This document shows, piece after piece, positions 2,328-17,528 of a DNA stretch of 20,000 bases. The translations under genes were made by a program, and so were the position numbers. The notes beneath the pieces are model-generated. The model was not told where the DNA came from. It searched no databases and saw nothing but the letters and a program-made list of their open reading frames with translations. The stretch lies in the IMG/VR virus record IMGVR_UViG_3300017754_004896. One strand, written 5' to 3'. Source of the stretch: an uncultured virus (IMG/VR IMGVR_UViG_3300017754_004896) (taxonomy: Duplodnaviria > Heunggongvirae > Uroviricota > Caudoviricetes). Numbering within the stretch: the first letter of the stretch is position 1; each line of letters opens with the position of its first letter.

Positions 2328-2329
2328 GC

Positions 2330-3321: not shown

Positions 3322-3328
3322 GGTAAAA

Positions 3329-3880: not shown

Positions 3881-3886
3881 GCCGCC

Positions 3887-4183
3887 ATGTATCGCGCGAG
3901 CTATCGGAGCCTGGGGGCCAGTAACGGCGATAAAGGGGCCGAGCTTCTCGTAGAGACGGCGCCCCCCGTTATCACGGCGTGCCCCCAGTGCTCAAGGCTG
4001 GAGGCGGGGAGCTGTGTCGTCTGCAAGCCCGGCGAGCAGCATCCGTCCTGTCAGGGCTGCAACGGGGGGGTACCGGAGAAGACGCCGTGGTATCAAACCC
4101 AGTTTGCGGCGACGGTAGGTGCGATGGTAGTGGCTTCGGTGCTGACCGCTATCATCGTGGAGAGAATCACGCGAAAACGTTGA
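3887..4183 (+). CDS. Small Cys-rich protein with C-terminal TM anchor (98 aa)
   Basis: Three CxxC motifs (CPQC, CVVC, CQGC); TM FAATVGAMVVASVLTAIIV then ERITRKR. Confidence 0.8.
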   Translation: MYRASYRSLGASNGDKGAELLVETAPPVITACPQCSRLEAGSCVVCKPGEQHPSCQGCNGGVPEKTPWYQTQFAATVGAMVVASVLTAIIVERITRKR

Positions 4184-4199
4184 AGTTTCTCGTCGGAAC

Positions 4200-4235
4200 T
4201 TGACTTCTGCGGGGTGCAAGTGGCACGTTAGTGCC
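4200..4235 (+). promoter_or_regulatory. Putative sigma70-type promoter overlapped by a short palindrome
   Basis: TTGACT (4200-4205), 18-nt spacer, TG-G-CACGTT (non-consensus -10); inverted repeat GGCAC-GTTA-GTGCC at 4222-4235; ATG at 4239 has no SD. Confidence 0.35.
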
Positions 4236-4238
4236 GCC

Positions 4239-4961
4239 ATGTCCAACGAGAAAACTACGCCCGCGGGGGAGCCTGCGGAATCTAAGGTCGTTCTGAGTAT
4301 CCCAGTTGCCAGCGGAACCCCTGCACCTGTGAAGGAAGAGGGGGTATCTTGGTCTGGCAACGTCGCACCGATGGTCATAATGAAGGGGGGCACGACAAGC
4401 TCGTCCTATGACCAGCTGATGCAAGCCAAGGAGGCCGACGCAAACCGGCGTCGAGATCATCAAGACACCGTCCGCAAGATGATTGAGGATGATGTGGACG
4501 CCGGGGGAGGCGTCGGAGGGTTCCACGAGCAGAAGCTAGTGACGCAGGAAACGCCCAAACTTCTGCTTCAGTACCTCAACCTCGACGGCTCTGTGTATCA
4601 GGAGTGCATCTCCGAGATAACAGGAGATTTCGATCCGTTTGGCAACAGTACTAACATGATGTTCACACTTGTCTGTCCTGACTGTGTGGCTCGTGGGTTG
4701 CCGCAGAGTGAATGTCAGATTATGGTTCGAGACAGTCACCGGAAGTGGTTCCTCGACGATAAAAAGAGAGGAATCGTGCCGGTTGAGACGCCGTGGGGCA
4801 CGCAGGTGTTGAACAGGGCGGGTACTGTTACCGTGCAAGATGTCGTCAAATGCTCGAACTACATGTGTACTTGGGCAGCCAATATTGACGACTCGAAAGT
4901 GAGGCGAGTGTCGAATAAGAAAGGCCGGCTACATCCCGCCAAGCCTTCGAGGGGGAGATGA
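4239..4961 (+). CDS. Hypothetical protein with probable Zn-binding C-terminal domain (240 aa)
   Basis: Start reassigned to ATG 4239; CPDC and CSNYMC pairs; ATGA overlap with the next gene. Confidence 0.75.
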   Translation: MSNEKTTPAGEPAESKVVLSIPVASGTPAPVKEEGVSWSGNVAPMVIMKGGTTSSSYDQLMQAKEADANRRRDHQDTVRKMIEDDVDAGGGVGGFHEQKLVTQETPKLLLQYLNLDGSVYQECISEITGDFDPFGNSTNMMFTLVCPDCVARGLPQSECQIMVRDSHRKWFLDDKKRGIVPVETPWGTQVLNRAGTVTVQDVVKCSNYMCTWAANIDDSKVRRVSNKKGRLHPAKPSRGR

Positions 4962-6319
4962 TGACAGAGCCGTTATCTGAGATTCCGGATCCAGGCGCGA
5001 GGGAGTTCCGGAAAGAAGACGACTACACGGCAAGGGGGGAAAAGGCTGGGTTACCTGTAGGTATTGTGTTTCGAGGCTATTGGAGGATTGCCGCGGACGG
5101 AGTTGCCAGGCACACTCGAGAGACAGTCAAAGCGCTCGTCAAAGCCGGCGTTCCTATTCACTTGCAATCTGTCACTGCAGGGAGCGGGATAGTAAACGAC
5201 GAGCTACCGGAAGATGTCAGGGCACTGGAGCACTTGACCCGGACCACGTTCGAGCGAAACGTACTCCGTATCCTGCAGGTCATTTGGACCAGGATCGACG
5301 GGCTGAAGCAGCAGGTGCTTCCCCCGAGCACGCCCTTTATCAGTGACGACCTGTTGAACTCGGTTCTTTCGAGGACCATCGTTTATACAGTTTGGGAGCG
5401 AGACCGCGTCGAGAAAGACGAAGTGGAGCTTCTGAACAAGTTGGGACAGGTGTGGGTTACTAACCAGGATACGAAGAAAGCGTTCCTGCGAAGCGGTGTG
5501 TTGGAGTCGAAGCTAAGAGTCGTTCCCTATTGTTACGACCCGGACGATTACCTGATTGACCCCGACCCCGAGCAGACAGACAGGCTCGAGTACTTCCGAG
5601 GCCCGTCGTGGCTTTCCTTTCCGAGAGCCGTTACCGGGGAGGTCCCCCCAGGCAGGCGCTTCTATCACATAGGGAAGTGGGAGATTCGCAAGGACCATCA
5701 CCGGATGATCGGGTGCTTCCTGAAGGCGTTCAAGCCAACGGAGGATGCGAGTCTGTTTATCAAGACCTCCCCATACCCAATGGGTACTAGCTATTCTTCG
5801 CCCGAAGAATCGGTAGCGTATTGGCTTTCAGACCCTACCGTGCAGAAGCAAGGGTGGACTACCGAGACCTTCCCAAAGCGGGTGAGGATTCTCCAGAAGA
5901 AGCTATCGGAGCGAGATATTCTGGAACTTCACCGAAAGAACAACATCTACCTGTCAATCGGGCACTGCGAGGGCTGGGATATCCCGGCTTTCGAGGCGAA
6001 GCAAGCAGGCAACAGACTAGTGTACACCGACTACGGGGGGCCGCCCGAGTTCGCCAGTGCCTCGGATATCGCGTTGCCGTGGAAGTTTGTGACGATTGAC
6101 CGTATCTATCAGTGGGATAAGGCTCAGTGGGCGCATGTAGACACGCACAAGATTATTGATGCTCTGCGGGCAGTGAAGCCACCCGAGAGGCGGATTCAAG
6201 AGCCGAGGTTGTATCGGACGTGTGGGAGAGTCCCTGCGGGCCTTCGCATGAAGCAGTACATTCAAGAGCTTCTTGCAGAGGTAGAGCCAGGGCTTGTACT
6301 GGACGGGAGCATGGGATGA
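4958..6319 (+). CDS. GT-B fold glycosyltransferase (GT4-like) (453 aa)
   Basis: FYHIGKWEIRKDH and EGWDIPAFEAKQAG (E-x7-E) motifs; TDYGGPPEF. Confidence 0.85.
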   Translation: MMTEPLSEIPDPGAREFRKEDDYTARGEKAGLPVGIVFRGYWRIAADGVARHTRETVKALVKAGVPIHLQSVTAGSGIVNDELPEDVRALEHLTRTTFERNVLRILQVIWTRIDGLKQQVLPPSTPFISDDLLNSVLSRTIVYTVWERDRVEKDEVELLNKLGQVWVTNQDTKKAFLRSGVLESKLRVVPYCYDPDDYLIDPDPEQTDRLEYFRGPSWLSFPRAVTGEVPPGRRFYHIGKWEIRKDHHRMIGCFLKAFKPTEDASLFIKTSPYPMGTSYSSPEESVAYWLSDPTVQKQGWTTETFPKRVRILQKKLSERDILELHRKNNIYLSIGHCEGWDIPAFEAKQAGNRLVYTDYGGPPEFASASDIALPWKFVTIDRIYQWDKAQWAHVDTHKIIDALRAVKPPERRIQEPRLYRTCGRVPAGLRMKQYIQELLAEVEPGLVLDGSMG

Positions 6320-7383
6320 TTCGGTTATACTCGAAGAAGCACAGGGGCTCGTTTGATATCGTAGAGCTCGGGTTGATACGAGCTTTGAGGGCGAGTGACA
6401 ACCTTGCGGGCATCGTTGACCTAGACAAGGACGAGCCCGACCCTGGAGTCACTGCGAAGCGCGCTATTGTTGTCAGCAACCCGTTCTTGACGCAGTTGGC
6501 ACACCTGCGAGGGATCCATGAAGAGGTTTGGCTCGTTCTAGCCCCCAACAGCGAGGGAGTATCCCCCAACGTCCGGGAGTTACTGAGCGAGGAAATCTAT
6601 TCGGTGGCGAAGGGGAAAGCAGTACCGCTAGTTCAAGGGCTTTTCAGCCCCTCGAAGTGGGGAGAGCAAGTTTTGAAACGCACCTTCCCAACGATCCCCG
6701 TAAGACTTCTTAGGCACGGTGTGCTGAAAGAGTTCTTCTGTGACGTGCTGCAAAGGGACAAGGTCAGAAAGTCTTTCACCAACGAAGGCAAGTTCATTGT
6801 TCTGCACTCGACGAGTACCTTCAGCGACAGGAAGGGCACGAAAGAGCTGCTGGAAGCCTGGGCAGGATTCCAGAGGAAGGTGCCGTCTGCGGAGCTCTAC
6901 ATCGCTTGTCAGCCAGGCTTGTGGATGCAATTTCAGCAGCTAGCCGCCAAGTTTGGGGCGAAGAACGTCCACATGCAGAAGTTCTTCGGGACGCTGCTTG
7001 AGCCGTGGGCGCGGGTGCTGGGCGGAGTACATGCGGTCGTCCAGCCGTCGCGCGGAGAAGGCTTCGGGCTCGTTCCCCTGGAGGCGAGGGCTACAGGAAC
7101 CCCCATCGTAGCTACTGATTGCACAGGGCACTCGGAGCATGTGACGGTAGAGGATGGAGTTGTCGTGGTACCAACGCATGAGCTTTCGGATATCAACGAT
7201 TATCCGAGGGCGAGGGCTCCAAGTCTGGAGGCCAAGGACATCGAATCGAGCCTGTGTGCTCTGTACGATACTTACTTGAAGCACCATGATGCAGCGGTCG
7301 AACGGGCGCCCTTCCTTCTTCGGGATTGGGCTTGGGAAAAGGTCGTCAACGAGGATTTGGAGTCAGCAGGATGGAGAAAATAA
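6316..7383 (+). CDS. GT-B fold glycosyltransferase (GT4) (355 aa)
   Basis: Start reassigned to ATG 6316 (ATGA overlap); DRKGTKELLEAW and PSRGEGFGLVPLEARATGTPIVATD motifs. Confidence 0.9.
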   Translation: MIRLYSKKHRGSFDIVELGLIRALRASDNLAGIVDLDKDEPDPGVTAKRAIVVSNPFLTQLAHLRGIHEEVWLVLAPNSEGVSPNVRELLSEEIYSVAKGKAVPLVQGLFSPSKWGEQVLKRTFPTIPVRLLRHGVLKEFFCDVLQRDKVRKSFTNEGKFIVLHSTSTFSDRKGTKELLEAWAGFQRKVPSAELYIACQPGLWMQFQQLAAKFGAKNVHMQKFFGTLLEPWARVLGGVHAVVQPSRGEGFGLVPLEARATGTPIVATDCTGHSEHVTVEDGVVVVPTHELSDINDYPRARAPSLEAKDIESSLCALYDTYLKHHDAAVERAPFLLRDWAWEKVVNEDLESAGWRK

Positions 7384-7715
7384 CCCCGCAAGTTGAGCCC
7401 CAGGTGCCAGCTGCACCCCCTGTGCCGGAGGTCGCACCTGTAGTGCCCAGCCATTGGATGGACTACGACGGGGCCGCGGTTCTCGTTCAGCTCCGGCGGC
7501 CCATGCTGCTCGTGAGCTATCCAAACCAGGCAATCGAGCAAGACGGTGAGCTCGCTAAGACAGAGTACCTGCGGGGGATTTGTTCGGTGAGGGGCCCTGA
7601 CCTGCATCGGAATATCACCGTGATCACGCAGGACCCCTTTCAGCAGGGGCTGGTCGTTACGACGCTGATCCCTGTGGACCTGATCGCGTATATCTCGAAG
7701 GTGGATGCGCGCTAG
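7371..7715 (+). CDS. Hypothetical beta-rich protein (114 aa), possibly Sm/LSm-like fold
   Basis: Start ATG 7371 with GGAG upstream; Pro-rich N-terminus; stop overlaps the convergent gene's stop (CTAG 7712-7715). The fold is a pattern guess. Confidence 0.7.
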   Translation: MEKITPQVEPQVPAAPPVPEVAPVVPSHWMDYDGAAVLVQLRRPMLLVSYPNQAIEQDGELAKTEYLRGICSVRGPDLHRNITVITQDPFQQGLVVTTLIPVDLIAYISKVDAR

Positions 7716-8161
7716 GAAGCGTCGCCATCTTCGATGGACCGGAGGAATCTCATGAAGTGAGGGTTCGCAAGGGCCCTCACTCCGTACCGGTCTTTCCGCA
7801 GTCTCCGGACATGAGCTATGATATATCGCATCGACATGCCGGAGACTCGGAAGATAGCGAGAGCCGTCACGAGGGCGGAGCGGTTCCTCCCTAGATGGCA
7901 AGTGATGAGGATGGTTCGGCCCCTCTCCCACTCACGTTTGACCGCTTCCGCCGCCAGAACAGCCAGCGAGCAGTTCTCCGGGGATTCGTCGTCGGTCATG
8001 GGCGCATGGATCACGCAATCCAGGCCAGGGAACATCTCGAAGGGCGGCTGGTATTCCTCGGCGCAGAGCACGAGGGTGTGGAAGCCGGCATCCGCGAGCC
8101 CCCTTCCCGTTTTGGGTGCGGAACCTATCCAGATTCGGGGGTAGAGGTTGGTTATGTCCAT
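7712..8161 (-). CDS. Dual-specificity / protein-tyrosine phosphatase family protein (~149 aa)
   Basis: Cx5R P-loop TCHLGRNRSA; IWIGS N-terminal strand; acidic loop PMTDD; C-terminal NPHF. Start is ATG 8161 or GTG 8164. Confidence 0.9.
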   Translation of the reverse strand: MDITNLYPRIWIGSAPKTGRGLADAGFHTLVLCAEEYQPPFEMFPGLDCVIHAPMTDDESPENCSLAVLAAEAVKREWERGRTILITCHLGRNRSALVTALAIFRVSGMSMRYIIAHVRRLRKDRYGVRALANPHFMRFLRSIEDGDAS

Positions 8162-8172
8162 CACGACGTTGA

Positions 8173-8182
8173 ATGCTAACAT
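8173..8182. promoter_or_regulatory. Putative bidirectional extended -10 element ATGCTAACAT
   Basis: Reads TG-C-TAACAT on + and TG-T-TAGCAT on -, between divergent genes whose candidate starts are only 19 bp apart. Confidence 0.5.
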
Positions 8183-11100
8183 GGCCCAGCTCGCGGTGCT
8201 GCGAGGAAAGAACCGGCTGCAGGACCTGGAGGCATGGGTTCAGGGGTTCGGGAAGGGAGACCCGAAGCGCGCCGAGCGCTACCTGGACGTCGTGCGTTCG
8301 TACTTCGGAGGGGCAGGAGCCGCCGCGCCGCAGGGAGAATGGCGAAGCTACGTCGGGGGAAAAAGCCCCCAAACGAAGAAGATATACCTGCACGCGATTA
8401 CTGAATTCTTCGAGTGGATATCCCGTCTGAAGGGGCGTGTTGTCTCCCCGGAGGACGTGACGCGCGCGGATGCGGCCGAATACGTGCAGTTCTTGTCAAA
8501 CCCTCGTCCCGGTATGGAGGCCGAGAAGGTAAAGGACGGGGACCGAAACTTCGACCGAAAAATCCTCGAGTACATCGAGAAGAAAGGGGAGGTCAGGTTT
8601 CACGAGCTTCTGCCCGTGCTCGCAAAGTGGAAAGGGAAAACCGACCAGCAGATTGCCGCGTTGATGGACATTGACCCAGCCAACGCCCAGGACTACGGGG
8701 TGGAGAGACGCTCCGAGTATCGTGGGATTCTAGGGCGGCTGGTAAACCAGCAGATTATAAAATGCACCCCTAGCGTGAGGACCCTTCGGAGGGAGAAATT
8801 CACTGAACACGGGGTGACACGATACCCTTACTCTCGATTGGGTATAAATCTCTGGGAAAAGGATGGGGTTCCTTTTGACTTCCTTTTCACATACGGTACC
8901 GTCGGGGAGCGGGTTGCCAAACGGTCAACGGTTGCGCTGAAAATCTCGGCGCTTTCGTCTTTCTGGGATGCACTATCCCAAGGGGAAAACAAGCCCGGGG
9001 GTGAACCTATTCTCAAGCACAATATCTGGAAGGAGCATGTCAAAATGCTCTCTTCGAGACTTCGTCAGGAGAAGAAGGACTCAGCATCGAAGAAGCTCCT
9101 GACAGCCGAAGAGATAGGGCAGTTGTTCGCCGCCCCGGTCAAGGACCTCGCTGGACTACGGGACCGAGCCATCATCTACCTACTTGCGTTCACCGGCATT
9201 CGCTCGAACGAGTTGCTCCAGCTGAAGCGGGGGACGCCGACGCAGCCGGAGAAGACCGCTGGCTGGTTCGAGGGAGGGGAAACACCCAAGATATTCGTCA
9301 CCAGAAAACGAGGAAGACGGGAGTACATACCCTACCCTCACATTGCCTTGCACCATCTGCAGATATTCCAGCGGGAGATGGCCGCGTTGGCCGCAAAAGA
9401 AGGCGACCAATGGGAGAACCCGCAGAACCCCAACTACATCCCTAGCGAGGACAAGCGCTGGTTGTACCAGGCGCTCGGGTTGCCCAGTGCTCCGCTGTTC
9501 CCGCTACTGGGTGCATGGGGACGCAACAAGGGGGTGACGGGGCGGGTAAGACACCTTTCGAGGTCGGGGTTATTCTTGCTGCTGCGGCGTGCCGCGCAGC
9601 GAGCAGGGTTTACAGAGCAGCAGGTCAAGAGGGTTCACCCGCACGCCTTCCGACACTTCTTTGCGACGACCGCGAGGGCTGGAGGCATGCCTATCCACGA
9701 GATACAGGCGCGCCTCGGGGTAACCAGCTTGACGACGCTTGAGGTGTACTTTGACGCGCCTCCTGAGGCTCAGACCCGTACCGCGGAAAGTGCGGTGCTT
9801 CGAGGGATGGGAGGAGCTTTCGGAGGAGGCGTCGAGCCCATACCCGAGCCCCCTCGAAGAGAGATCCAGGTGCCGCCGGAGAAGGTACCCGGGAAGCGCG
9901 CAGTGGGCGCCGAAGAGGTAATCGAGACCGTGGGAGAGCCTGCGCCGTTGGAGTCCCCGTTGGAGGTCGAGCCGGCACAGGTGCTGCCTCACGAGGGGTT
10001 CACCTTCTTCCGGGGGGTACCAGAGATGCCTCCCAACAAGCAAGCGGAGCCTCCCACAGTATTGCCGGTGCAGGTCGCCGCGGGGGAACTTGAGCGGGTG
10101 GACGAGCACGCGCGGAAAGCGCTTGTTGCAGAGAAGGCCCTCGTTAGCCTAGGCGCCCCCGAGTATTCCTACGAGGGGCTGCGGCAGCACGGAACGGGGG
10201 AGCTTATCTCTTTCACGTCTCGGAAGGATGAGAAGACAGGATTCAACCTTTCCCTTCCGCCTGACAAGCCGAAGTACCAGGGGAACAAGTTCCTGCTCGA
10301 GTACTACGACCCCTGGCCTCTCAACTACGGGGTGGGGCAGAGGTCGCTCTTGCCGTGGTTCTTCGTAGGGGGGGCACCGGACAAGTACGGGTTCTTTTCT
10401 GGCGCCGCCCCGCTGCCCGTATGGAGCCGGGACCAGCTTTGCCCAGATACTGAGACGGGGGAGCACTTCCTCGTCGAGATAGAGGCCCTTTACCTAAAGT
10501 ATCTGACCGGGGACGCGGAGAAGGGGCTATCAGCCAACCCAGCCCAGGCATACGGGCTGCTTCGCTGGTTCGGGTTCTTCGTGTATGCAGGGCACCGGCT
10601 GACGAAGTACTTCTATCTGCAGGACGAGCGCCCAGAGCCGGAAGAGGGCCTGAACACGGTTCTAAGCTGGCATCCTTGGGCTTCTGACATCCCGCTTACT
10701 AAAGGGGAGAAGAACATAAGGGAGCACGACGAAAGGTGGCTGTTAGACTGGCTAGGTCGAAACGCACATACCTATAAGACATCCCTTAGAGAGTACAGAA
10801 ACGTGGCTCGCAAGGAGTCAGGGGACCAGTGGCTGCTGGCTACCCTTGAAGGGGTAAGCCTGGTTGAGACATCGCTGCCGGCATGGTTTGCCGAGGACGA
10901 CCCGCTGGCGTTACCGGAGGAGGAATGGGGAACGTTCGTCCGGTGGCTCGCCAATATCACGGGCAAGCGGTTCACCATGAAGCGGCAGGAGTCTCGGATG
11001 CAGACGGCGGCGTTGTCCGCGTCCAAGCAGCAAGCCAAACGTGCGCAGGTCGAGAAGGCCTTGCTGCTGTTCTTCGAGGCGAACACGGAATTTTACGAGG

Positions 11101-12359
11101 CAGAGAAGCTCCGGGACACCTCGGCGCAGGACGAAGCAGCCCAGACGATGCGTGCGGCGCTCGCGTCCTACATCGGGATCACGGTTGGCCTCGAGAAGCT
11201 ATCCAAGGACGAACAGAAGGTGATGTTCGCCGAGCGAGTGAAAATGGACACCTTCGTTCGCGTTTTCCAAGGGGTAGCGGAGCGGCTGAAGGTGCCCAAC
11301 CCTCTCTCGAAGGAGTGGAGGGAGCATCCACGAGTTGCACAGCGCGCCGTCGAGATGGTGAACCGGTTGTACCCTCAGGTGAACGAAGAGGACGTACTTC
11401 TGAGCGGCAACGTAGTGGCCGACAGTGAACTTTTCTCCCAGTTGGAGCTCGACCCGGATACTCGCAAGGTGGGGGTGAAGGAGGAATACCGGGAAGATTT
11501 CATCGAGAAGTTTGGGCAGGATCCAGAGCTGCTTCTTCGCCGGGCGCTTCGCGGGATGTGGGAGGCCGCGAAGGAAGAGGCCAAGAAGAAGGGTAAAGAG
11601 GTCCAGGCGGCAGGGAAGACGACGGAGGTTCGGGAACGCAGCTACAATGTCATGCTCTCTTACCTGTCTTGGATCATACCTTCAGGGAAAGAGATGGAGC
11701 GGCGCGCGTTTGACATGCCCGACGTGGGCAAGAGCCTTTTCAGGCGGTTGCCAAAGCAAGCCGAGTCAGGGGGAGCTCGCACGACCCGCAGTTACGAGCA
11801 ACTGACCGACGAAGAGCGCATGTTCCTCCGGCTTGAGTGGATCCGGAAGTACCAGGAAAACATCGCCTCAATTGCTCAGGGGGACCGGTACTGGCAAGAA
11901 GAGCAGCAATACTGGCTGGAGGCAGAGCAGGAGCCCGAAGAGGAGGGTCGCTGGGGAGGACGCGTCGGTGTCCTCAGCATGCAGCGCAAGGCGGGTGGTA
12001 CTACGCCGAACCCTCCAAATCGGCTATCAGATATCGGCGTAGCCGTGGCTGCATACGACTTGATGCTGGTTGCGTCAATCGAGGGCAGCACGGATGCTTC
12101 GGAAAAGGTCCGAAAGCAGGACCTGGCCGGCGGACGCGCCACCGGTCGCACGATGCGTCGCAACGGGGCGTATCAAGACTATGTGTACTCCGAGGCCGAC
12201 ACAGAGGAGACCGGTCGCTGGCATCGCTCCATGACCCCCAATGGACGGAAGGTGCTGCTCTCCGAGTCCGTGGTGGAGCGCGTGCTCGACTCCGTCTACG
12301 TCCCCACGATGCTGCTCCCGAGCCCCTTCCGGCAGATCATTGCAACGACGCTGGTTTGA
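8181..12359 (+). CDS. Giant tyrosine recombinase/integrase-domain protein (~1390 aa) with long unknown C-terminal extension
   Basis: Core-binding helices (SPQTKKIYLHAITEFFEW; AKRSTVALKISALSSFW); RDRAIIYLLAFTGIRSNEL (R at 9201); HPHAFRHFFAT (H 9642, R 9651); LGVTSLTTLEVY (Y at 9747). Start uncertain (ATG 8181 or GTG 8196). Confidence 0.9.
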   Translation: MAQLAVLRGKNRLQDLEAWVQGFGKGDPKRAERYLDVVRSYFGGAGAAAPQGEWRSYVGGKSPQTKKIYLHAITEFFEWISRLKGRVVSPEDVTRADAAEYVQFLSNPRPGMEAEKVKDGDRNFDRKILEYIEKKGEVRFHELLPVLAKWKGKTDQQIAALMDIDPANAQDYGVERRSEYRGILGRLVNQQIIKCTPSVRTLRREKFTEHGVTRYPYSRLGINLWEKDGVPFDFLFTYGTVGERVAKRSTVALKISALSSFWDALSQGENKPGGEPILKHNIWKEHVKMLSSRLRQEKKDSASKKLLTAEEIGQLFAAPVKDLAGLRDRAIIYLLAFTGIRSNELLQLKRGTPTQPEKTAGWFEGGETPKIFVTRKRGRREYIPYPHIALHHLQIFQREMAALAAKEGDQWENPQNPNYIPSEDKRWLYQALGLPSAPLFPLLGAWGRNKGVTGRVRHLSRSGLFLLLRRAAQRAGFTEQQVKRVHPHAFRHFFATTARAGGMPIHEIQARLGVTSLTTLEVYFDAPPEAQTRTAESAVLRGMGGAFGGGVEPIPEPPRREIQVPPEKVPGKRAVGAEEVIETVGEPAPLESPLEVEPAQVLPHEGFTFFRGVPEMPPNKQAEPPTVLPVQVAAGELERVDEHARKALVAEKALVSLGAPEYSYEGLRQHGTGELISFTSRKDEKTGFNLSLPPDKPKYQGNKFLLEYYDPWPLNYGVGQRSLLPWFFVGGAPDKYGFFSGAAPLPVWSRDQLCPDTETGEHFLVEIEALYLKYLTGDAEKGLSANPAQAYGLLRWFGFFVYAGHRLTKYFYLQDERPEPEEGLNTVLSWHPWASDIPLTKGEKNIREHDERWLLDWLGRNAHTYKTSLREYRNVARKESGDQWLLATLEGVSLVETSLPAWFAEDDPLALPEEEWGTFVRWLANITGKRFTMKRQESRMQTAALSASKQQAKRAQVEKALLLFFEANTEFYEAEKLRDTSAQDEAAQTMRAALASYIGITVGLEKLSKDEQKVMFAERVKMDTFVRVFQGVAERLKVPNPLSKEWREHPRVAQRAVEMVNRLYPQVNEEDVLLSGNVVADSELFSQLELDPDTRKVGVKEEYREDFIEKFGQDPELLLRRALRGMWEAAKEEAKKKGKEVQAAGKTTEVRERSYNVMLSYLSWIIPSGKEMERRAFDMPDVGKSLFRRLPKQAESGGARTTRSYEQLTDEERMFLRLEWIRKYQENIASIAQGDRYWQEEQQYWLEAEQEPEEEGRWGGRVGVLSMQRKAGGTTPNPPNRLSDIGVAVAAYDLMLVASIEGSTDASEKVRKQDLAGGRATGRTMRRNGAYQDYVYSEADTEETGRWHRSMTPNGRKVLLSESVVERVLDSVYVPTMLLPSPFRQIIATTLV

Positions 12360-12361: not shown

Positions 12362-12432
12362 AAAGTAGAAAGCCGCCGGTTCGACGGCGGCTTTCTTGAT
12401 GGTCAGAGAGGAAGGAGATTCTGCGACCATAC
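12362..12432 (-). ncRNA. Candidate small RNA A (~70 nt): anti-SD-like hairpin plus terminator
   Basis: ATGGTC...GACCAT stem (12399-12430) enclosing AUCUCCUUCC on -, followed by the 12367-12396 terminator; preceded by GTGCTAT (12437-12443). Confidence 0.35.
12367..12396. terminator. Bidirectional intrinsic terminator
   Basis: Perfect 12-bp stem AGAAAGCCGCCG / CGGCGGCTTTCT with loop GTTCGA, 7 nt after the recombinase stop, between convergent units; T-rich 3' side on both strands. Confidence 0.85.
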
Positions 12433-12586: not shown

Positions 12587-13258
12587 CTATGCGGCGCCGC
12601 CCCGAAGCCATTGCCAGACGGCCCCGGCCCACCCTGCGTAACCTTTGGGCGTGGCGTGGATCCCGTCGAATTGTGGGATGTCGAGCAGGGAGCTGTCGAA
12701 GTAGGGGACGTCTAAGCCAGCAACCGTCTCGCGCATCGCCTTGATGATTTCGGGGCGCAGGGTGCTGTTGACGTACCGCGCCGGAAGCTTCGGAGGACCT
12801 ATCCAAATCACAGAGGCGCCGGCCGCTCGAAGCGCGGCGACGAGGTCTTTCACGCTCTGCACGATGGTAGCGGCGTCTACGGTGCCGAAGGCTTCATTGG
12901 TGCCGAAAGAAACGAGCACCAGAGAGGGCTTGTATTCGTCGAGGGTCTTTCGCAGGGTCGTGCTGCAGTTGCTCGTGGGGAAGCAGCTGCCGCAACCTCC
13001 CGCATACCGAGGGTTCGTGTATTGAAAGCACGCGGTCCCCCCGCAAGCGATAGCTCCGAAGGAGGCATCGAGCGCCTTTTCGTCGAGTACCAGCGCTTTC
13101 AGCGGCGTGGCGAGACCTACCCCCAAGCTATCGCCCATCACGAGCACCCGTTCGCCTTTGCGCACCGTAGGGCGTTTGGAGGCGGGAGTGACGGCGGTGG
13201 CTAGGCCTACTCCGGCTACAATCACCAGGCCGGCAAGGATCCAGTCTCTGTGACTCAT
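12587..13258 (-). CDS. SGNH/GDSL-family hydrolase with N-terminal membrane anchor (223 aa)
   Basis: Block I GDSLG, block III FGTNE, block V DGIH(ATPKGY); N-terminal WILAGLVIVAGVGLATAV; start reassigned to ATG 13258. Confidence 0.9.
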   Translation of the reverse strand: MSHRDWILAGLVIVAGVGLATAVTPASKRPTVRKGERVLVMGDSLGVGLATPLKALVLDEKALDASFGAIACGGTACFQYTNPRYAGGCGSCFPTSNCSTTLRKTLDEYKPSLVLVSFGTNEAFGTVDAATIVQSVKDLVAALRAAGASVIWIGPPKLPARYVNSTLRPEIIKAMRETVAGLDVPYFDSSLLDIPQFDGIHATPKGYAGWAGAVWQWLRGGAA

Positions 13259-13266
13259 GAGGAAGC

Positions 13267-13276
13267 ATGGTATCAT
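13267..13276. promoter_or_regulatory. Putative bidirectional extended -10 element ATGGTATCAT
   Basis: Reads TG-G-TATCAT on + (10 nt before ATG 13287) and TG-A-TACCAT on - (8 nt before ATG 13258), inside a 28-bp divergent intergenic gap. Confidence 0.65.
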
Positions 13277-13286
13277 ATCTGGCGTC

Positions 13287-13997
13287 ATGGCTGCCAGTTG
13301 CCCAGGATATGCGTCGTGGGAGACCCTCCCGAACTTCCAAACCCGCGTGACCTATCAAGGACAGACCTACATCCCGGTGTTCACGGGCGCTACCGCTTCG
13401 GAGAAGACCTTCATCGCACGCCTCCAGGAAGCATGGGCGAAGTACGGAGACATGATTACCCGTGCGACGGAGGGAACCGGCTTCCCTATCCCGTGGTTCA
13501 TGGGGATTCTCTGCGCGGAGAGCTTGGGCAACATCAATGCCTGTGCTCCTTGCGGCAAGGAAAACGGGTGTGGTCTGACTAACTGCACTCAGTGCTGCGC
13601 GTTCGGCATCATGCAGATCATAGACAGCACCGCACGAGCCTACGGGGGCGTGACGGGGGCTTCTCTCCTCGGTAATCCAGAGCTTTCGTTCAAGGTAGCC
13701 GCGAAGCTGTTCGTGTCTATCGTCTCGCGATACGGCATGAACTTGCCGATGATCGCAGGGGCTTATAATTCCGGAGGGTTTACTTGCAGGCAATTCTCGT
13801 CCCCGAACATGTTCGGCAACATCGAGAACAACGGGTACACCCAAAGGGTAGTAACTTTCGCAAATACCGCGGTGGCGTTGGGTATCGGTACAGGTGCTTC
13901 CGGTACGGCGTCAGCACGCACGGCCCCCGCAACCATTGTAGGGGGGCTACTAGTAGCAGGGTCGGCGTTGGCCCTGATGTGGCATTGGAGACGCTGA
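13287..13997 (+). CDS. Lytic transglycosylase (SLT family 1) with Cys-rich insert and C-terminal TM anchor (236 aa)
   Basis: Motifs AESLGN (catalytic E), FGIMQI, AYNSG, GYTQRV; C-terminal IVGGLLVAGSALALMWHWRR; start reassigned to ATG 13287. Confidence 0.9.
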   Translation: MAASCPGYASWETLPNFQTRVTYQGQTYIPVFTGATASEKTFIARLQEAWAKYGDMITRATEGTGFPIPWFMGILCAESLGNINACAPCGKENGCGLTNCTQCCAFGIMQIIDSTARAYGGVTGASLLGNPELSFKVAAKLFVSIVSRYGMNLPMIAGAYNSGGFTCRQFSSPNMFGNIENNGYTQRVVTFANTAVALGIGTGASGTASARTAPATIVGGLLVAGSALALMWHWRR

Positions 13998-14003
13998 ACC
14001 ACC

Positions 14004-14234
14004 ATGTACTATATCTGGGAGCTAACCGACAAGTTCACTCTGCGCTTCGACGTCCCCACAGGGCAGGCCTTTACCTTCTACGACGCGAAAACCGCCGCTA
14101 GAATAGCTGCCACCATGGGCTCGAGGCATCGCATGGTGACGAAGGGCAAAGGACCGAACGCCGAGATTCTTCGTATCTATCGCAAGAAGACGGGGGAGAA
14201 AATCTACCCTAAGCCTAACAAGAACGCGCACTAG
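14004..14234 (+). CDS. Small basic hypothetical protein (76 aa)
   Basis: Fills the gap between the SLT stop and the convergent GT stop; Lys/Arg-rich C-terminal half. Confidence 0.7.
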   Translation: MYYIWELTDKFTLRFDVPTGQAFTFYDAKTAARIAATMGSRHRMVTKGKGPNAEILRIYRKKTGEKIYPKPNKNAH

Positions 14235-14237
14235 TCT

Positions 14238-15041
14238 TTAGGGGGGTGGAGGCCTTCGGCCCCGAATCGGTTTGAGACCGTTCACCATGTCATAGTCTAC
14301 TTCTTCGCCCAGGTACATGACATGCAGCCCCCATTGCTGGGCGCGGGCAACGGCATCTCGCTTGTAGGCGTGGGATTCGCCGCGGCGCTCCCAGAGGAAG
14401 TGGAAGGGGCTGGTGCAGTACAGGTGCCCCCCTCGAGACTCGACTTCAAGCACGAAGTGAACGTCTTCGGCAACGGGTTGCTCCCGGAACCGTCTCACCT
14501 TGGCCAGGTCGAAGCTTTGGACGCCCCCTGAGCACCAGGCATACTTCGTGTGGGCCACATACCGGTTGAGCAACCAAAACCCTCGGTCGTCTACGATGAA
14601 ATGTTGGCACTTGCCTACGATATCGTGTTCCCCGCCGGCTAGGACCAGCATCTGCTCTTCGAGGTAGCCTGGCCCATAGTAATCGTCGTCGTCGAAAACC
14701 GAGACGAAGAGAGAGTCTTCCCCGAGTTCCTTTCGCAAGAAGTCGAGGGCCACATTCTTCGCCGCCCCTGCCGACCTAGCGTTGGGGGCTTGAAGTACAT
14801 GCCCCGAGCCTGTCCAGCACCCGAGGGCCCGCCCATTTTCGACGATGAGCAGGTCCTTGTAGGGGTACCTTTGCCGAAGGAAGCCATCCAACACCGCTTG
14901 GCAGCGCTCGGGGCGCGAGAAGGGGACGATCACCGTAACAGGAGGAGGGGCTCCTGGTGGCGAAGAATACCCAAAGGATAGTTCAGTTGAGTCCGAGCAG
15001 CTGGTTGACCGTGCGTTGTCGAGGTCCCTGATGCTGTTCAT
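14238..15041 (-). CDS. GT-A fold glycosyltransferase (GT2-like) (267 aa)
   Basis: VTVIVPFSRP, QRYPYKDLLIVENG, GAAKN, FDDDDYYGPGYL (DxD), AEDVHF; GGAGG upstream of ATG 15041. Confidence 0.85.
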   Translation of the reverse strand: MNSIRDLDNARSTSCSDSTELSFGYSSPPGAPPPVTVIVPFSRPERCQAVLDGFLRQRYPYKDLLIVENGRALGCWTGSGHVLQAPNARSAGAAKNVALDFLRKELGEDSLFVSVFDDDDYYGPGYLEEQMLVLAGGEHDIVGKCQHFIVDDRGFWLLNRYVAHTKYAWCSGGVQSFDLAKVRRFREQPVAEDVHFVLEVESRGGHLYCTSPFHFLWERRGESHAYKRDAVARAQQWGLHVMYLGEEVDYDMVNGLKPIRGRRPPPP

Positions 15042-15732
15042 AGCCCAATGTCCTCCCCACGTACTTGCGGAATCGAGCGTCCAAGTGGTCCAGTGTCGTG
15101 GAGAACTGGGCGCGAATGTCCTTGTTTTGATAGTACCTCAGCCGGAGCTCGTCCGGGTGAGGGATGGCGTCCACCATCCGAGACTGTATCAGTGAGACGG
15201 GCATCAGAGAGGGCTCCAGCCCCGCCAAAAAGAACAGCCGCAGTCGGAGGTCGATGTCCTCGTGACCGTAGGTGGCCCCGAAGGAGGTATCGTATCCTCC
15301 AACCGCGGCGAAGGCGCTCGACGGCACCAGGAGCAGCCCCACGAGCTGCTTGAAAGTTTGCCCTTGGGGGTCTCGTCCTGGCGTGATGAGCTGCCGGCCG
15401 GGGTCTCGATTCAGCGACAACCAGCCGAGGGCCGGCGGGTGCAAGATGGTGTCGGCGTCGGCGAAGAGCAGATACTTGTATCCGGCTTCGATAGCGCACT
15501 TGGCCCCCAAGTTCGCGGCCCGGGTTTTCTCGAACCCCTTGGCCTCGGTCCTAATGACCCTGGCCTGGGGGAACGTCTCCTTTAGCCATTCCCCCGACTG
15601 CTCAGGGCAGCCCCAGTCTACTAGGTGATACCCGATAGGCACAGGCGGCGACGCCCCGAGCAACAGCGGCGCGGTTCGCCGAAGGTGCTCGAGGCGGCCT
15701 TTGCAGGTAACTATGACGGCAACCGCGTCCAC
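14983..15732 (-). CDS. GT-A fold glycosyltransferase (GT2 / galactosyltransferase-like C-terminus) (249 aa)
   Basis: LVDWGC, RAANLG, LLFADAD (DxD), VGGYDTSFGATYGHEDIDLRLRL; start reassigned to GTG 15732, with GAGGA supplied by the adjacent repeat unit. Confidence 0.85.
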   Translation of the reverse strand: MDAVAVIVTCKGRLEHLRRTAPLLLGASPPVPIGYHLVDWGCPEQSGEWLKETFPQARVIRTEAKGFEKTRAANLGAKCAIEAGYKYLLFADADTILHPPALGWLSLNRDPGRQLITPGRDPQGQTFKQLVGLLLVPSSAFAAVGGYDTSFGATYGHEDIDLRLRLFFLAGLEPSLMPVSLIQSRMVDAIPHPDELRLRYYQNKDIRAQFSTTLDHLDARFRKYVGRTLGYEQHQGPRQRTVNQLLGLN

Positions 15733-15735
15733 TGA

Positions 15736-15979
15736 GGTGTCCTCACGGTGTCTCACGGTGTCCTCATGGTGTCCTCGCGGTGTCTCACGGTGTCCTCGCG
15801 GTGTCCTCACGGTGCCTCACGGTGTCCTCGCGGTGTCTCACGGTGTCCTCGCGGTGTCTCACGGTGCCTCACGGTGTCCTCTCGGTGTCCTCACGGTGCC
15901 TCACGGTGTCCTCTCGGTGTCTCACGGTGTCCTCATGGTGTCCTCACGGTGTCCTCTCGGTGTCCTCACGGTGCCTCAC
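15736..15979. repeat. Tandem array of 23 units of 10-11 bp, consensus GGTG(T)(C)CTCAC
   Basis: Hand-parsed: 14 11-mers (GGTGTCCTC + AC/GC/TC/AT) and 9 10-mers (GGTGTCTCAC or GGTGCCTCAC) over 244 bp, with no spacers. Confidence 0.97.
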
Positions 15980-16185
15980 GGCATCCGCCCCTCTTCCATG
16001 ACCTGCCACATTTCGGCGGTAGAACGGGCCAGTTGATACGTCGGGGCCTGGTAGGCGTCGATGACGTCCCAGTCGCGACTAGGAGGCGCAGCTCGCCGAG
16101 TCCGGGTCACAACGAACCCCGCATTGTTTGACCGGATTTGTACCTTCCGGTCTTCCCCGTTGTACTCCCAGAGCAGCTGGTTCAC
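15976..16185 (-). CDS. Hypothetical protein (69 aa)
   Basis: GTGA overlap with the upstream gene; its stop codon lies inside the outermost repeat unit. Confidence 0.7.
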   Translation of the reverse strand: MNQLLWEYNGEDRKVQIRSNNAGFVVTRTRRAAPPSRDWDVIDAYQAPTYQLARSTAEMWQVMEEGRMP

Positions 16186-16523
16186 GGTTTCGATTCCCCT
16201 CTGCTCGGTTGTACTACCTGAAACTTTTTAGTAGGCAGGTCGGTAGGAAGGGTGTCCTCAATGTACTTTGGAACGGGAGGCGGGGGTGGAATCGGAGGAA
16301 GAATCGGTTCCTTCTTGATGACCTTCGACAGAATTCCGTTGAGGTTCGCCACCGCCGCGAGGGAGATAGCAACCCAACCCCATTTCACGGCGTCAGGGTG
16401 AGCGGCCACCAGAATGTTCAGGAAGACGCTGTACGCGATATAAAGCAACCCAATCACACGTAAGGTGTGGTCGAGCCAGGGCACCCCTGTAGACAGGGAC
16501 GCTAGAATTGGTATTAGATCCAT
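16182..16523 (-). CDS. Small multi-TM membrane protein with Pro-rich tail (113 aa); holin-like size and topology
   Basis: Hydrophobic segments VIGLLYIAYSVFLNILVAA and WGWVAISLAAVANL; GGGAG SD; charged C-terminus. The holin role is only a guess. Confidence 0.75.
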   Translation of the reverse strand: MDLIPILASLSTGVPWLDHTLRVIGLLYIAYSVFLNILVAAHPDAVKWGWVAISLAAVANLNGILSKVIKKEPILPPIPPPPPVPKYIEDTLPTDLPTKKFQVVQPSRGESKP

Positions 16524-17131
16524 AGTTTCTCCCGTATGTCCTCTATTTGCTTAGCTCTGGCTCTCTTGCAGTCGTCGCAGGATTCGGCCAGTTCCTCGGC
16601 AAGTTGCTTGATTGTTTTGGCAGAGGGGGCGATGTAGAGGCGGTGGTCCTCGGTCTCGGAGACGACGACTAGGCACTTCGCCCCAAACACGCTGCCTTTC
16701 CAGTAACTGAAGGCCCCTTCGACGGAAGGGGCTTTCGTCAGCAGCAAGAAGTCGATAGCCGCTTCGGTCGTCCCCGGGTCGATAACAAGCTCCAAGTAAT
16801 CCGGCAGCAGGTTCTCTGCATGCCGCAGGAACCCGCGCCGGTACTCGGGGGATTCATCCACGGGTTCGTCGGATATGTACCAGGGACGAGACACCTCGTA
16901 GAGGGCTCGGGCCACATCCGTAGTGACCAGGATGGGGCCTTGGCCTTTCGTCCAATCGTAGACTACCCCCAGTTCCGCTTCCTCGGTTTTCCCGTCCACT
17001 TCGACGTAACACGGGCCCTCTACCAGTATTGGCTGAGGGCTCATGTAGTGCTCGTAATCGTTTGGCTCGAAGTGGAAGGTCGCTCGGTCGAGAACCCTTT
17101 TTGCGTCCGCCTTGGCGGTCGTGTATGTCAT
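16514..17131 (-). CDS. Acidic hypothetical protein (205 aa)
   Basis: Start reassigned to ATG 17131 (MTYTTAK) using the ATGA overlap; C-terminal CDDC. Confidence 0.75.
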   Translation of the reverse strand: MTYTTAKADAKRVLDRATFHFEPNDYEHYMSPQPILVEGPCYVEVDGKTEEAELGVVYDWTKGQGPILVTTDVARALYEVSRPWYISDEPVDESPEYRRGFLRHAENLLPDYLELVIDPGTTEAAIDFLLLTKAPSVEGAFSYWKGSVFGAKCLVVVSETEDHRLYIAPSAKTIKQLAEELAESCDDCKRARAKQIEDIREKLWI

Positions 17132-17517: not shown

Positions 17518-17528
17518 GGTCTTGCCTT

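What the first reader, a model, noticed from the sequence alone, without database searches (positions are those of the whole stretch)
8181..12359. Giant (~1390 aa) tyrosine recombinase with ~870 aa of unrecognised C-terminal sequence
Seen: the catalytic Tyr is at about residue 523. A Pro/Glu linker follows, then a Trp/Tyr/Pro-rich region (YYDPWPLNYG, SLLPWFF, LLRWFGFF, WHPW) and a long helical, charged region in which I recognise no motif. Established: XerC/D and phage integrases are typically 300-450 aa and end shortly after the Tyr. Inference: a multi-domain recombinase whose extension could provide target capture, host-factor independence, genome resolution or virion packaging. This is the strongest candidate for a new enzyme architecture in the window.
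Basis: partly seen in the sequence, partly recalled or inferred. Interest (0 to 1): 0.82.

Follow-up and report, generated by a model that had tools for sequence, protein, structure and literature searches.

The report
Giant phage tyrosine recombinase family
This is a real 1,392-residue gene in which an ordinary-looking DNA-cutting "tyrosine recombinase" is permanently fused to a large, conserved protein module of unknown shape and function, and it defines a small family found only in a group of large, uncultured bacterial viruses.

Summary
Window 8181-12359 (+) is one uninterrupted ORF of 1,392 aa, identical in contigs of two runs from two studies. Residues 1-545 are a Xer-like "simple" tyrosine recombinase (R327, K376, H488, R491, Y523). 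The usual second His is Val514 here but His in 35 of 36 relatives. An acidic Pro/Glu/Ala linker follows, then a ~740-aa module.

The module folds confidently in AlphaFold2 (pTM 0.84). It matches nothing in Pfam, PHROGs, NCBIfam, PADLOC, PDB sequences, PDB folds or BFVD. For its most conserved part the best VIA Z is 3.1.

The fusion is not an artefact. An exhaustive search found 51 representatives, 35 of them 1,136-1,618 aa. All 36 full-length proteins scanned carry the integrase domain, and no convincing stand-alone C-terminal protein was seen.

Members sit in GC-rich, phage-like genomes of about 110-140 kb, several of which assemble as circles. In 16 of 20 loci a Cys-phosphatase gene lies back-to-back with the recombinase gene.

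Function is inferred only: probably the phage's own site-specific recombinase, with integration slightly favoured over Cre-like resolution, and the module acting as a built-in accessory part. No att site or prophage was found. Verdict: new variant of a known kind.

The parts
8181..12359 (+). Whole gene of the giant tyrosine recombinase: 1,392 aa from ATG 8181. Alternative starts are ATG 8154 (1,401 aa) and TTG 8148.
8181..8915 (+). Residues 1-245: enlarged N-terminal/core-binding region. It holds a SAM-like integrase domain at residues 60-107 and a family-specific insertion at about 110-245.
   Evidence: Pfam PF13495 at 21.9 bits is below its cut-off of 27 in this protein, but matches 34 of 36 relatives at E<=0.01. 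Conservation.
8916..9815 (+). Residues 246-545: catalytic domain. Catalytic residues are R327 (9159-9161), K376 (9306-9308), H488 (9642-9644), R491 (9651-9653) and Y523 (9747-9749). V514 (9720-9722) sits where 35 of 36 relatives have His.
   Evidence: PF00589 at 52.6 bits (cut-off 27.1) and phrog_1 integrase 9e-24. Residue counts. PDB hits to XerA and XerD.
9816..10145 (+). Residues 546-655: acidic Pro/Glu/Ala-rich linker. Its length varies across the family (67-251 aa).
   Evidence: Low pLDDT at the start of the model.
10146..10985 (+). Residues 656-935: domain A, an alpha/beta, Trp/Tyr/Pro-rich domain. Invariant residues are Y709, P746, W796, H849, W857, N861, P900, P908 and W922. No known fold was found.
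   Evidence: pLDDT 83.8, pTM 0.78; best Z 3.1; mean identity 0.35
10986..11405 (+). Residues 936-1075: long helical hairpin region. It is helical in the model but poorly conserved in sequence (mean identity 0.16).
11406..11720 (+). Residues 1076-1180: conserved core C. It holds the SELF..D and RRAxRxMWE motif, with invariant R1120, R1121, R1124 and P1167.
11721..12200 (+). Residues 1181-1340: variable, charged region. Much of it has low model confidence.
12201..12356 (+). Residues 1341-1392: conserved C-terminal strands and helices ending in the LPSPFRxIAAxTL tail.
7712..8182 (-). Divergent neighbour: a 156-aa dual-specificity (Cys) phosphatase-like gene. It carries the CX5R motif (C95...R101) and D64, all invariant in 16 of 16 homologues. 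It lies back-to-back with the recombinase gene in 16 of 20 loci that have upstream sequence.
12367..12396 (.). A 13-bp-arm hairpin followed by T/A runs, just after the stop codon. It is terminator-like on both strands, lying between the convergent recombinase and GDSL-lipase genes.

Best explanation
The gene encodes a catalytically equipped, Xer-like 'simple' tyrosine recombinase: a core-binding domain plus a catalytic domain, with no arm-binding domain detected. A flexible acidic linker tethers it to a ~740-residue, three-part module specific to this family. The module has no catalytic motif and no known fold. It is the only integrase-type recombinase recognised in the two complete phage-like genomes annotated here. 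It most likely carries out site-specific recombination of the phage DNA itself. I favour integration into and excision from a host chromosome. On that reading the C-terminal module acts in cis as the accessory part (partner or site choice, synapsis or directionality control) that small recombinases get from arm-binding domains, excisionases and host factors. Shown: the ORF, the catalytic residues, the conserved fusion, the confident but unmatched fold, the phage context and the linked phosphatase gene. Inferred: that it recombines DNA at all, which DNA it acts on, and every role given to the module.
For: Recombinase identity. PF00589 scores 52.6 bits against a cut-off of 27.1, and phrog_1 integrase gives 9e-24. 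The best NCBIfam models are XerA, XerD and XerC. A profile search of PDB sequences hits XerA (3e-16), XerD (7e-14), IntI4 and the mycobacteriophage Brujita integrase gp33 (1e-8). R327, K376, H488, R491 and Y523 are each kept in 36 of 36 relatives.

The module is functional and always fused. 35 of 51 representatives are 1,136-1,618 aa, with the match starting after about residue 600. 36 of 36 full-length proteins carry PF00589. Domain A (mean identity 0.35) and core C (0.34) are conserved about as well as the catalytic domain (0.37). The AlphaFold2 model has pTM 0.84. Two distant 1,225-aa relatives (G408, G411) still keep the N-terminal half, domain A and core C.

Phage context. Related contigs of 111-140 kb are held in IMG/VR. 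G403 and G404 are classed there as having direct terminal repeats; I confirmed exact end repeats of 123 bp in G403 and 141 bp in C182. They encode an endolysin (7.7e-37), DnaB/DnaC, RecE/RecT, ThyX and Ku. No other integrase-type PHROG hit was found in C182 or G403.

Accessory rather than essential. Three related genomes rated complete (G407, G410, G413) have no match, and G409 has an ordinary 441-aa open frame matching only the catalytic motif.

Precedent. Simple recombinases without arm-binding domains do serve as phage integrases (PMC8138268, passages read).
Against: No att site, host junction or integrated copy was seen. The scan of 185,579 species genomes returned one locus, on an episomal contig with identical ends, but that scan used only two peptide patterns. 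400 further genomes of the same phylum showed only ordinary recombinase matches among the 150 places listed, with 616 places not listed. No tRNA gene lies next to the gene in any of 17 loci scanned. No repressor or excisionase family was recognised, but most proteins of these genomes match nothing. Contigs of two runs show no joints, though contigs cannot show rare junctions. This copy has Val at the His-III position, so it may be slower or inactive. The closest characterised relatives (XerA, XerD) resolve dimers rather than integrate.
Confidence: 0.4

Rival explanations
1. Cre/Xer-like genome housekeeping. The enzyme acts on a single site in the phage genome. It would circularise terminally redundant DNA after entry and/or resolve replication or plasmid-prophage multimers, as Cre-lox does in P1. 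The C-terminal module would couple the reaction to another phage or host machine.
For: The closest characterised relatives are the dimer-resolving XerA, XerD and XerC. It has the simple architecture with no arm-binding domain detected. The genomes are large (111-140 kb), and contigs with identical ends of 141 and 123 bp fit circular or circularly permuted DNA. No integrated copy was found. That Cre is itself dispensable is recalled, not tested; if so, the patchy distribution fits this reading too.
Against: No candidate lox/dif-like site was found beside the gene; only hairpins with 4-nt loops of terminator type turned up. No partition genes were recognised in C182 or G403. C182 already encodes RecE/RecT and Ku for end joining or circularisation.
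Confidence: 0.27
2. A non-recombination role. The protein would use the recombinase fold mainly as a DNA-binding or nicking (topoisomerase-like) module on a large scaffold. Examples: a virion-packaged or injected protein, or a DNA-end or replication factor. The C-terminal module would be the main functional part.
For: The module is larger than the enzyme and equally conserved. In one gene order the gene follows a ~35-kb co-directional block of unknown, presumably late genes. Jumbo phages are reported to carry topoisomerase IB enzymes with a tyrosine-recombinase-type catalytic domain (PMC7824862, one passage read). This copy lacks His-III.
Against: The full recombinase residue set, including the HxxR motif, is kept in 36 of 36 relatives, and the SAM-like core-binding domain is present in 34 of 36. 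That topoisomerase IB has Lys in place of this His is recalled, not tested. In the other gene order the gene is not in the late block. Related complete genomes lack the gene.
Confidence: 0.15
3. A DNA-inversion switch, shufflon-like or host-range switching. The recombinase would flip a segment of the phage genome.
For: The two-gene cassette (phosphatase plus recombinase) is found in both orientations relative to the conserved glycosyltransferase block in different phages. Tyrosine recombinases such as Rci do run shufflons (PMC8138268, passage).
Against: No significant inverted repeats flank the cassette or lie within the window; the best pairs are 15-28 nt at 73-94% complementarity and none bracket the cassette. 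No invertible segment was found among the fibre-like genes of G403; its repeats are collagen-like 9-nt periodic repeats. Contigs of two runs show a single orientation and no joints.
Confidence: 0.06
4. Artefact: a fusion of two genes by a lost stop codon, a frameshift or a mis-assembly.
For: One related locus, L026, has its N-terminal part and the rest in different reading frames.
Against: The break in L026 lies inside the catalytic domain (query residues 461-471), not between enzyme and module. Among the other 19 loci examined, the open frames not cut by a contig end are 1,252-1,562 codons long stop to stop. 35 long representatives exist. The sequence is identical in contigs of two runs from two studies. 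Seven of the 10 short proteins looked up lie on contigs of 5.4 kb or less, and two have full-length cluster mates.
Confidence: 0.01

Closest known systems
Xer-type simple tyrosine recombinases (XerA, XerD/XerC, integron integrase IntI4)
   Same: They share the catalytic fold and the R-K-HxxR-(H)-Y residue set, and a SAM-like core-binding domain. They are the best sequence matches.
   Different: Those proteins are 290-320 aa (chain lengths) and end shortly after the Tyr. This family scores far below the equivalog cut-offs: 88 against 220 bits for XerA and 62 against 329.6 for XerD. It also has a ~135-aa insertion in the N-terminal region and about 850 extra C-terminal residues.
Simple phage integrases without an arm-binding domain (the IntBrujita group; Brujita gp33, PDB 5vfz)
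   Same: They are phage-borne, have only core-binding and catalytic domains, and give a detectable profile match of 1e-8. The class is described in PMC8138268 (passages).
   Different: gp33 is 318 aa with no C-terminal module. No att sites are known for the present family.
Cre of phage P1
   Same: It is a simple tyrosine recombinase encoded by a large phage with circularly permuted DNA. This is a functional analogy only, recalled and not tested here.
   Different: Cre is about 340 aa (recalled) and no sequence match was obtained. No lox-like site was identified here.
Large serine recombinases (phiC31-type integrases)
   Same: The resemblance is by analogy only: a recombinase enlarged by C-terminal domains that take over site recognition and directionality (recalled).
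   Different: They belong to an unrelated catalytic class. No resolvase-type family is among the 5 Pfam families that matched any of the 36 members at E<=0.01.
Protelomerases (TelK, TelN, ResT)
   Same: They have a tyrosine-recombinase-type catalytic core enlarged by extra domains. One weak language-model lead was seen (0.89, below the 0.9 mark).
   Different: PF16684 is not among the 5 Pfam families that matched any of the 36 members at E<=0.01. Related genomes assemble with identical direct ends rather than as hairpin-ended linear DNA.

Membership tests
Tyrosine recombinase superfamily (Pfam PF00589, Phage_integrase) | The catalytic-domain profile matches above the curated cut-off. | tested here: met
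   52.6 bits against a cut-off of 27.1. 36 of 36 family members match at E<=0.01.
Tyrosine recombinase superfamily | The catalytic residues Arg-I, Lys-beta, His-II/Arg-II (HxxR), His/Trp-III and the nucleophile Tyr are present. | tested here: inconclusive
   R327, K376, H488, R491 and Y523 are present and each is kept in 36 of 36. The His/Trp-III position is Val514 in this protein only, and His in the other 35 of 36. The Val codon lies in a stretch with 0 differences in a contig of the second run. Assignment of each column to a catalytic role rests on alignment plus recalled knowledge of the motif order.
Simple tyrosine recombinases (core-binding plus catalytic domain, no arm-binding domain; Smyshlyaev et al., PMC8138268) | A SAM-like core-binding domain lies N-terminal to the catalytic domain, and there is no arm-binding domain. 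| tested here: inconclusive
   PF13495 scores 21.9 bits, below its cut-off of 27, in this protein, but matches 34 of 36 members. PF02899 matches 20 of 36. No arm-binding family was hit, which is only absence of a Pfam match. The first ~55 residues and the 110-245 insertion were not folded.
Xer chromosome-dimer resolvases (XerC/XerD/XerA equivalogs, NCBIfam) | The score reaches the equivalog cut-off. | tested here: not met
   XerA_Arch scores 88 against 220 bits, XerD 62 against 329.6, and XerC 54.4 against 335.15. The gene is phage-borne, not chromosomal.
Xer chromosome-dimer resolvases | The enzyme acts at a dif-like site of two inverted ~11-bp arms around a 6-8-bp spacer. | tested here: inconclusive
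   Only hairpins with 4-5-nt loops were found within 600 bp downstream of the gene in 20 loci. The site need not lie there.
Phage integrase (functional class) | attP/attB recombination, with prophages bounded by attL and attR. | tested here: inconclusive
   No integrated copy was found: 1 episomal locus in the species-genome scan and nothing among the listed matches in 400 other genomes. No adjacent tRNA was found and there were no joints in contigs. All these searches have limited sensitivity.
Protelomerase (Pfam PF16684, ResT/TelK catalytic domain) | The profile matches, and the replicon is linear with hairpin ends. | tested here: not met
   PF16684 is not among the 5 families that matched any of the 36 members at E<=0.01. 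Related genomes have identical direct ends of 141 and 123 bp.
Large serine recombinases | An N-terminal resolvase-type catalytic domain with a Ser nucleophile. | tested here: not met
   No resolvase-type family is among the 5 Pfam families that matched any of the 36 members at E<=0.01. The resemblance is one of logic only.
Dual-specificity / Cys-based protein phosphatase (the neighbour, PF00782 DSPc) | The profile matches, and the CX5R active-site loop and a general-acid Asp are present. | tested here: inconclusive
   PF00782 scores 31.0 bits, below its cut-off of 33.5. phrog_10650 dual-specificity phosphatase gives 1.2e-6. C95, G98, N100, R101, S102 and D64 are invariant in 16 of 16 homologues.

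The most novel reading that the evidence does not exclude
These proteins would be 'large tyrosine recombinases', the tyrosine-class counterpart of large serine integrases. The new-fold C-terminal module, possibly working with the Cys-phosphatase that is nearly always encoded back-to-back, would supply site choice, synapsis and directionality in one polypeptide. That would make recombination independent of arm sites and host factors. A bolder form is that the PTP-like partner acts on the recombinase's phosphotyrosyl-DNA intermediate or on the enzyme itself, as a switch.
Probability: 0.15. Interest if true: 0.85.

Novelty: new variant of a known kind. Interest (0 to 1): 0.62.

Why it matters
Tyrosine recombinases are textbook enzymes and genome-engineering tools (Cre, Flp, lambda Int). 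In the survey I read (PMC8138268, passages only), their known architectures stop at about core-binding plus catalytic domain, with or without an N-terminal arm-binding domain.

This family carries an obligatory C-terminal module of about 740 residues. The module is as conserved as the enzyme, folds confidently, and has no detectable relative in sequence or structure. That opens a testable question: what extra task does such a recombinase perform in cis?

If the module gives autonomy or directionality, the family could yield new integrases for large DNA payloads. The family also marks an uncharacterised group of phage-like genomes of about 110-140 kb whose virion genes are not recognised by current profile libraries.

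Tried and rejected
Libraries with no match to the C-terminal region:
- Pfam, PHROGs, NCBIfam and PADLOC.
- PDB sequences, searched by phmmer and by profile.
- Foldseek against PDB and BFVD with the whole 753-aa model: no hit at E<=0.001.
- VIA-align against 48,161 chains with the whole model: only helical-hairpin matches, Z<=6.6, over model residues 309-432.
- Domain A alone: Foldseek PDB found nothing and the best VIA Z was 3.1. Core C and the helical part were not folded alone, so 'no known fold' is firm only for domain A.
- The language-model atlas gave no score of 0.9 or more.

Collections with no match:
- tblastn of the whole protein against cultured-phage records.
- tblastn of the C-terminal part against plasmids.
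- tblastn of two large neighbouring proteins of C182 against phages.
- The first IMG/VR scan with a 3-sequence alignment found nothing. A second scan with other patterns found 7 loci.

Virion genes:
- Terminase Pfam families were not found in G001 or in 5 IMG/VR genomes.
- Relaxed PHROG scans of 25 large unknown proteins gave no capsid, portal or terminase.
- The 'tail fibre' hits in G403 rest on collagen-like repeats.

Other checks:
- Complex prediction of the C-terminal module with the phosphatase returned 'no answer' (score 0.00, mark 0.32). This is not evidence either way.
- No RNA holder was listed among the sequencing runs.
- A GGTGTCC motif cluster occurs near the gene in the window and in L015 only, not across the family.
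- The ordinary recombinase of G409 is not at an equivalent locus.
- A tmRNA near the gene in L102 was considered as an integration target and rejected, because conserved phage genes lie on both sides of it.

Unavailable: the window's own genome and earlier findings.

Literature: four searches found no description of such proteins. I read only passages of PMC8138268 and PMC7824862. Supplements were not opened and could list such proteins.

Full report
**Observation**

Window 8181-12359 (+) translates into 1,392 residues with a single terminal stop. The ORF list gives 8148..12359, and the next longest ORF in the window is 453 aa. Three starts are possible: TTG 8148, ATG 8154 (the 1,401-aa form on record, P0002) and ATG 8181. 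I number from 8181. Codon composition is that of a gene, GC3 0.73 against GC2 0.43.

Contigs of two public runs from two studies carry the stretch. In X1, which may be the source, one contig covers 1-15775 with no difference. In X2, contigs cover 4600-8767 and 8760-12242 with no difference and no indel. The listed X2 pieces leave 12243-12290 uncovered.

**The first 545 residues are a tyrosine recombinase**

- Pfam Phage_integrase scores 52.6 bits against a cut-off of 27.1.
- A SAM-like core-binding domain scores just below its cut-off here but is found in 34 of 36 relatives.
- PHROG phrog_1 'integrase' gives 9e-24.
- The best NCBIfam models are XerA, XerD and XerC, all far below their equivalog cut-offs.
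- A family profile hits PDB XerA (3e-16), XerD (7e-14), IntI4 and the Brujita phage integrase gp33 (1e-8), always through the catalytic motif.

In an alignment of 36 full-length proteins, R327, K376, H488, R491 and Y523 are invariant. The position that is His in 35 of 36 is Val514 in the window's protein only. That codon lies in a stretch with no difference in the second run's contig. This copy may therefore be a slower enzyme. Assigning these columns to catalytic roles rests on the alignment and on recalled knowledge of the motif order.

**The extension is real, conserved and always fused**

An exhaustive phmmer search with residues 640-1392 against 1.84 billion representatives found 51 proteins at E<=0.001, of which 31 were at E<=1e-30.
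- 35, including the window's own, are 1,136-1,618 aa, with the match beginning after about residue 600.
- 16 are shorter (56-978 aa).
- Of the 10 short ones looked up, 7 lie on contigs of 5.4 kb or less, and two have full-length cluster mates of 1,382 and 1,249 aa.
- The three I read begin inside a domain.

All 36 full-length proteins scanned carry PF00589, and nothing is recognised in their C-terminal halves. At the DNA level 20 loci were examined. The open frames not cut by a contig end are 1,252-1,562 codons long stop to stop. One locus, L026, has a frame change inside the catalytic domain. I found no case of two separate genes.

**Anatomy**

| Residues | Part | Notes |
|---|---|---|
| 546-655 | Linker | Acidic, 43% Pro+Glu+Ala; 67-251 aa long across the family |
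| 656-935 | Domain A | Alpha/beta, with nine invariant aromatic or Pro/His/Asn residues; mean identity 0.35, against 0.37 for the catalytic domain |
| 936-1075 | Helical hairpin | Long helices; sequence poorly conserved (0.16) |
| 1076-1180 | Core C | RRAxRxMWE motif; mean identity 0.34 |
| 1181-1340 | Variable region | Charged; much of it low model confidence |
| 1341-1392 | C-terminal tail | Conserved LPSPFRxIAAxTL ending |

AlphaFold2 with a 45-row alignment gives mean pLDDT 80.7 and pTM 0.84 for residues 640-1392. For domain A alone it gives 83.8 and 0.78.

The catalytic domain is basic (net +18, pI 10.3). Domain A is acidic (net -8, pI 5.4) and so is the linker. Most of the module is therefore unlikely to be a general DNA binder. 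No nucleotide-binding or metal-binding motif is conserved: H849 is invariant, but the residues beside it vary.

**No known relative of the module**

Nothing matched in Pfam, PHROGs, NCBIfam, PADLOC or PDB sequences. Foldseek found nothing at E<=0.001 in PDB or BFVD. VIA-align over 48,161 chains gave only helical-hairpin matches (Z<=6.6) for the whole model. For domain A alone the best Z was 3.1, well below the 7-8 the tool quotes as typical for unmatched models. Core C and the helical part were not folded on their own.

**Context**

No genome is held for the window; its contig on record is 71.8 kb. Relatives lie on:
- a 122,730-bp contig of a metagenome bin, C182, with 141-bp identical ends;
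- 14 metagenome loci;
- 8 IMG/VR contigs of 61-140 kb, two of which IMG/VR classes as having direct terminal repeats.

Gene order upstream of the gene is shared with the window at about 30-45% protein identity. The shared genes are a DnaJ-domain protein, several unknown proteins and two GT4 glycosyltransferases.

C182 and G403 encode DnaB, which in C182 carries an intein, and DnaC. They also encode ThyX, lytic transglycosylases and an endolysin. C182 alone has RecE/RecT, Ku and MoxR-VWA. No capsid, portal or terminase family was recognised. The 'tail fibre' hits rest on collagen-like repeats. No relatives were found in cultured-phage or plasmid records. I call these phage-like genomes on the strength of the lysis and replication genes and their IMG/VR status. 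Their virion module is unrecognised.

**A linked gene**

A 156-aa Cys-phosphatase-like gene lies back-to-back with the recombinase gene. Its CX5R motif and Asp64 are invariant in 16 of 16 homologues. The pairing holds in 15 of 19 loci with upstream sequence, plus L117, giving 16 of 20. In C182 the phosphatase gene lies elsewhere, at about 78.8 kb. The two-gene cassette occurs in both orientations relative to the glycosyltransferase block in different phages.

**Distribution**

A conserved glycosyltransferase was used as bait in IMG/VR.
- 8 of the 24 loci returned have the recombinase within 10 kb.
- Ten of the remaining contigs were searched in full with the whole protein.
- Two of them, G408 and G411, carry distant 1,225-aa members that keep the N-terminal half, domain A and core C.
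- Three genomes rated complete (G407, G410, G413) have no match, even to the family profile.
- G409 has only an ordinary 441-aa open frame matching the catalytic motif.

The gene is therefore conserved within a subgroup but dispensable in the wider group.

**No integrated copy was seen**

- The species-genome scan, which used two peptide patterns, returned only C182.
- In 400 other genomes of that bin's phylum, the 150 listed places match only the catalytic motif. 616 places were not listed, and the tally includes one unpublished genome, G384.
- No tRNA gene lies next to the gene.
- A tmRNA in L102 lies inside conserved phage genes.

**Mechanism**

Shown: an intact recombinase active-site set, an obligatory and constrained accessory module, a phage context, and a linked phosphatase gene.

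Inferred: the protein recombines the phage's own DNA. I give 0.40 to integration and excision. This rests on four points. It is the sole integrase-type gene. Its presence is patchy. A relative carries an ordinary recombinase. Simple phage integrases exist (PMC8138268, passages read). I give 0.27 to Cre/Xer-like circularisation or multimer resolution, on the Xer likeness, the circular assemblies and the lack of any prophage. A scaffold or topoisomerase-like role gets 0.15, an inversion switch 0.06, and an artefact 0.01.

In each recombination reading, the acidic module on its flexible tether most plausibly works through protein contacts. These could be partner choice, synapsis or directionality, by analogy with the C-terminal domains of large serine integrases (recalled).

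**Comparison and novelty**

[quoted passage not shown] It is not a Xer orthologue, a protelomerase or a serine recombinase (see the membership test). The survey of architectures I read describes core-binding plus catalytic domains, with or without an arm-binding domain, and small additions such as an extra helix or a second core-binding domain (PMC8138268, passages). Four full-text searches found no description of such giant forms. I rate it a new variant of a known kind, interest 0.62.

**What led nowhere**

This is listed under Tried and rejected. It includes the complex prediction of the module with the phosphatase, which returned no verdict.

Noticed in passing
window 15736-15981: A tandem array of about 23 copies of an 11-nt unit (GGTGTCCTCAC, 85% matches) lies between two minus-strand genes. 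It breaks the contigs of both runs and has about double depth. It could be iterons, a centromere-like site or another protein-binding array. A cluster of the GGTGTCC core, in both orientations, also lies just downstream of the recombinase gene in L015 (14774-14945), but not in the other relatives.
   Followed up: partly
window 1-7715 and 12587-19977: The neighbouring genes are a DnaJ-domain protein (2330-2914), two GT4 glycosyltransferases (4958-6319, 6220-7383) and two GT2-like genes (14238-15810). There are also a GDSL lipase-like gene (12587-13288), an SLT transglycosylase (13257-13997) and a papain-like peptidase (17529-18308). Most other ORFs match no family in Pfam, PHROGs or NCBIfam.
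   Followed up: partly
L102 14799-15150 (-): A full-length tmRNA gene (Rfam 94.6 bits; tag ENDNAQLVAA) lies inside a block of conserved phage genes in an IMG/VR contig. It therefore appears to be phage-encoded rather than a host integration target.
   Followed up: partly
L006 15399-15595; L105 1323-1552: C182 has two tRNA-Ile genes with the unusual anticodon AAT, and G403 has one. G403 also has a tRNA with anticodon CTA, which would read the amber codon.
   Followed up: no
L008 13007-15724 (C182 73007-75724): The DnaB helicase is 906 aa and is interrupted by an intein with a LAGLIDADG homing-endonuclease domain. In G403 the DnaB is 479 aa and has no intein.
   Followed up: no
L005 (C182 6.5-17.2 kb): C182 has a MoxR-type AAA ATPase next to a VWA protein, a Ku homologue, and WGR and RyR domain proteins in a phage-like genome. 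A 70-bp inverted repeat (8972-9039 and 10917-10986, 96% identical) brackets a 1.9-kb segment with a central palindrome.
   Followed up: no
window 7712-12359 compared with L017, L018, L020, L025, L026 and L096-L102: The phosphatase-recombinase gene pair sits in opposite orientation relative to the conserved glycosyltransferase block in two subgroups of these phages. This is an in-place inversion of the cassette during evolution. No flanking inverted repeats were found.
   Followed up: partly
C182 80-115 kb; G403 86-114 kb: A co-directional block of about 28-35 kb holds some 30 genes, including proteins of 770-840 aa, with no match in PHROGs or Pfam. It is presumably a very divergent virion module. 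No capsid, portal or terminase family is detectable anywhere in these genomes.
   Followed up: partly
L105 9372-14607 (G403): Several fibre-like genes consist largely of collagen-like Gly-X-Y repeats with a 9-nt periodicity. These repeats drive their 'tail fibre' PHROG matches.
   Followed up: partly
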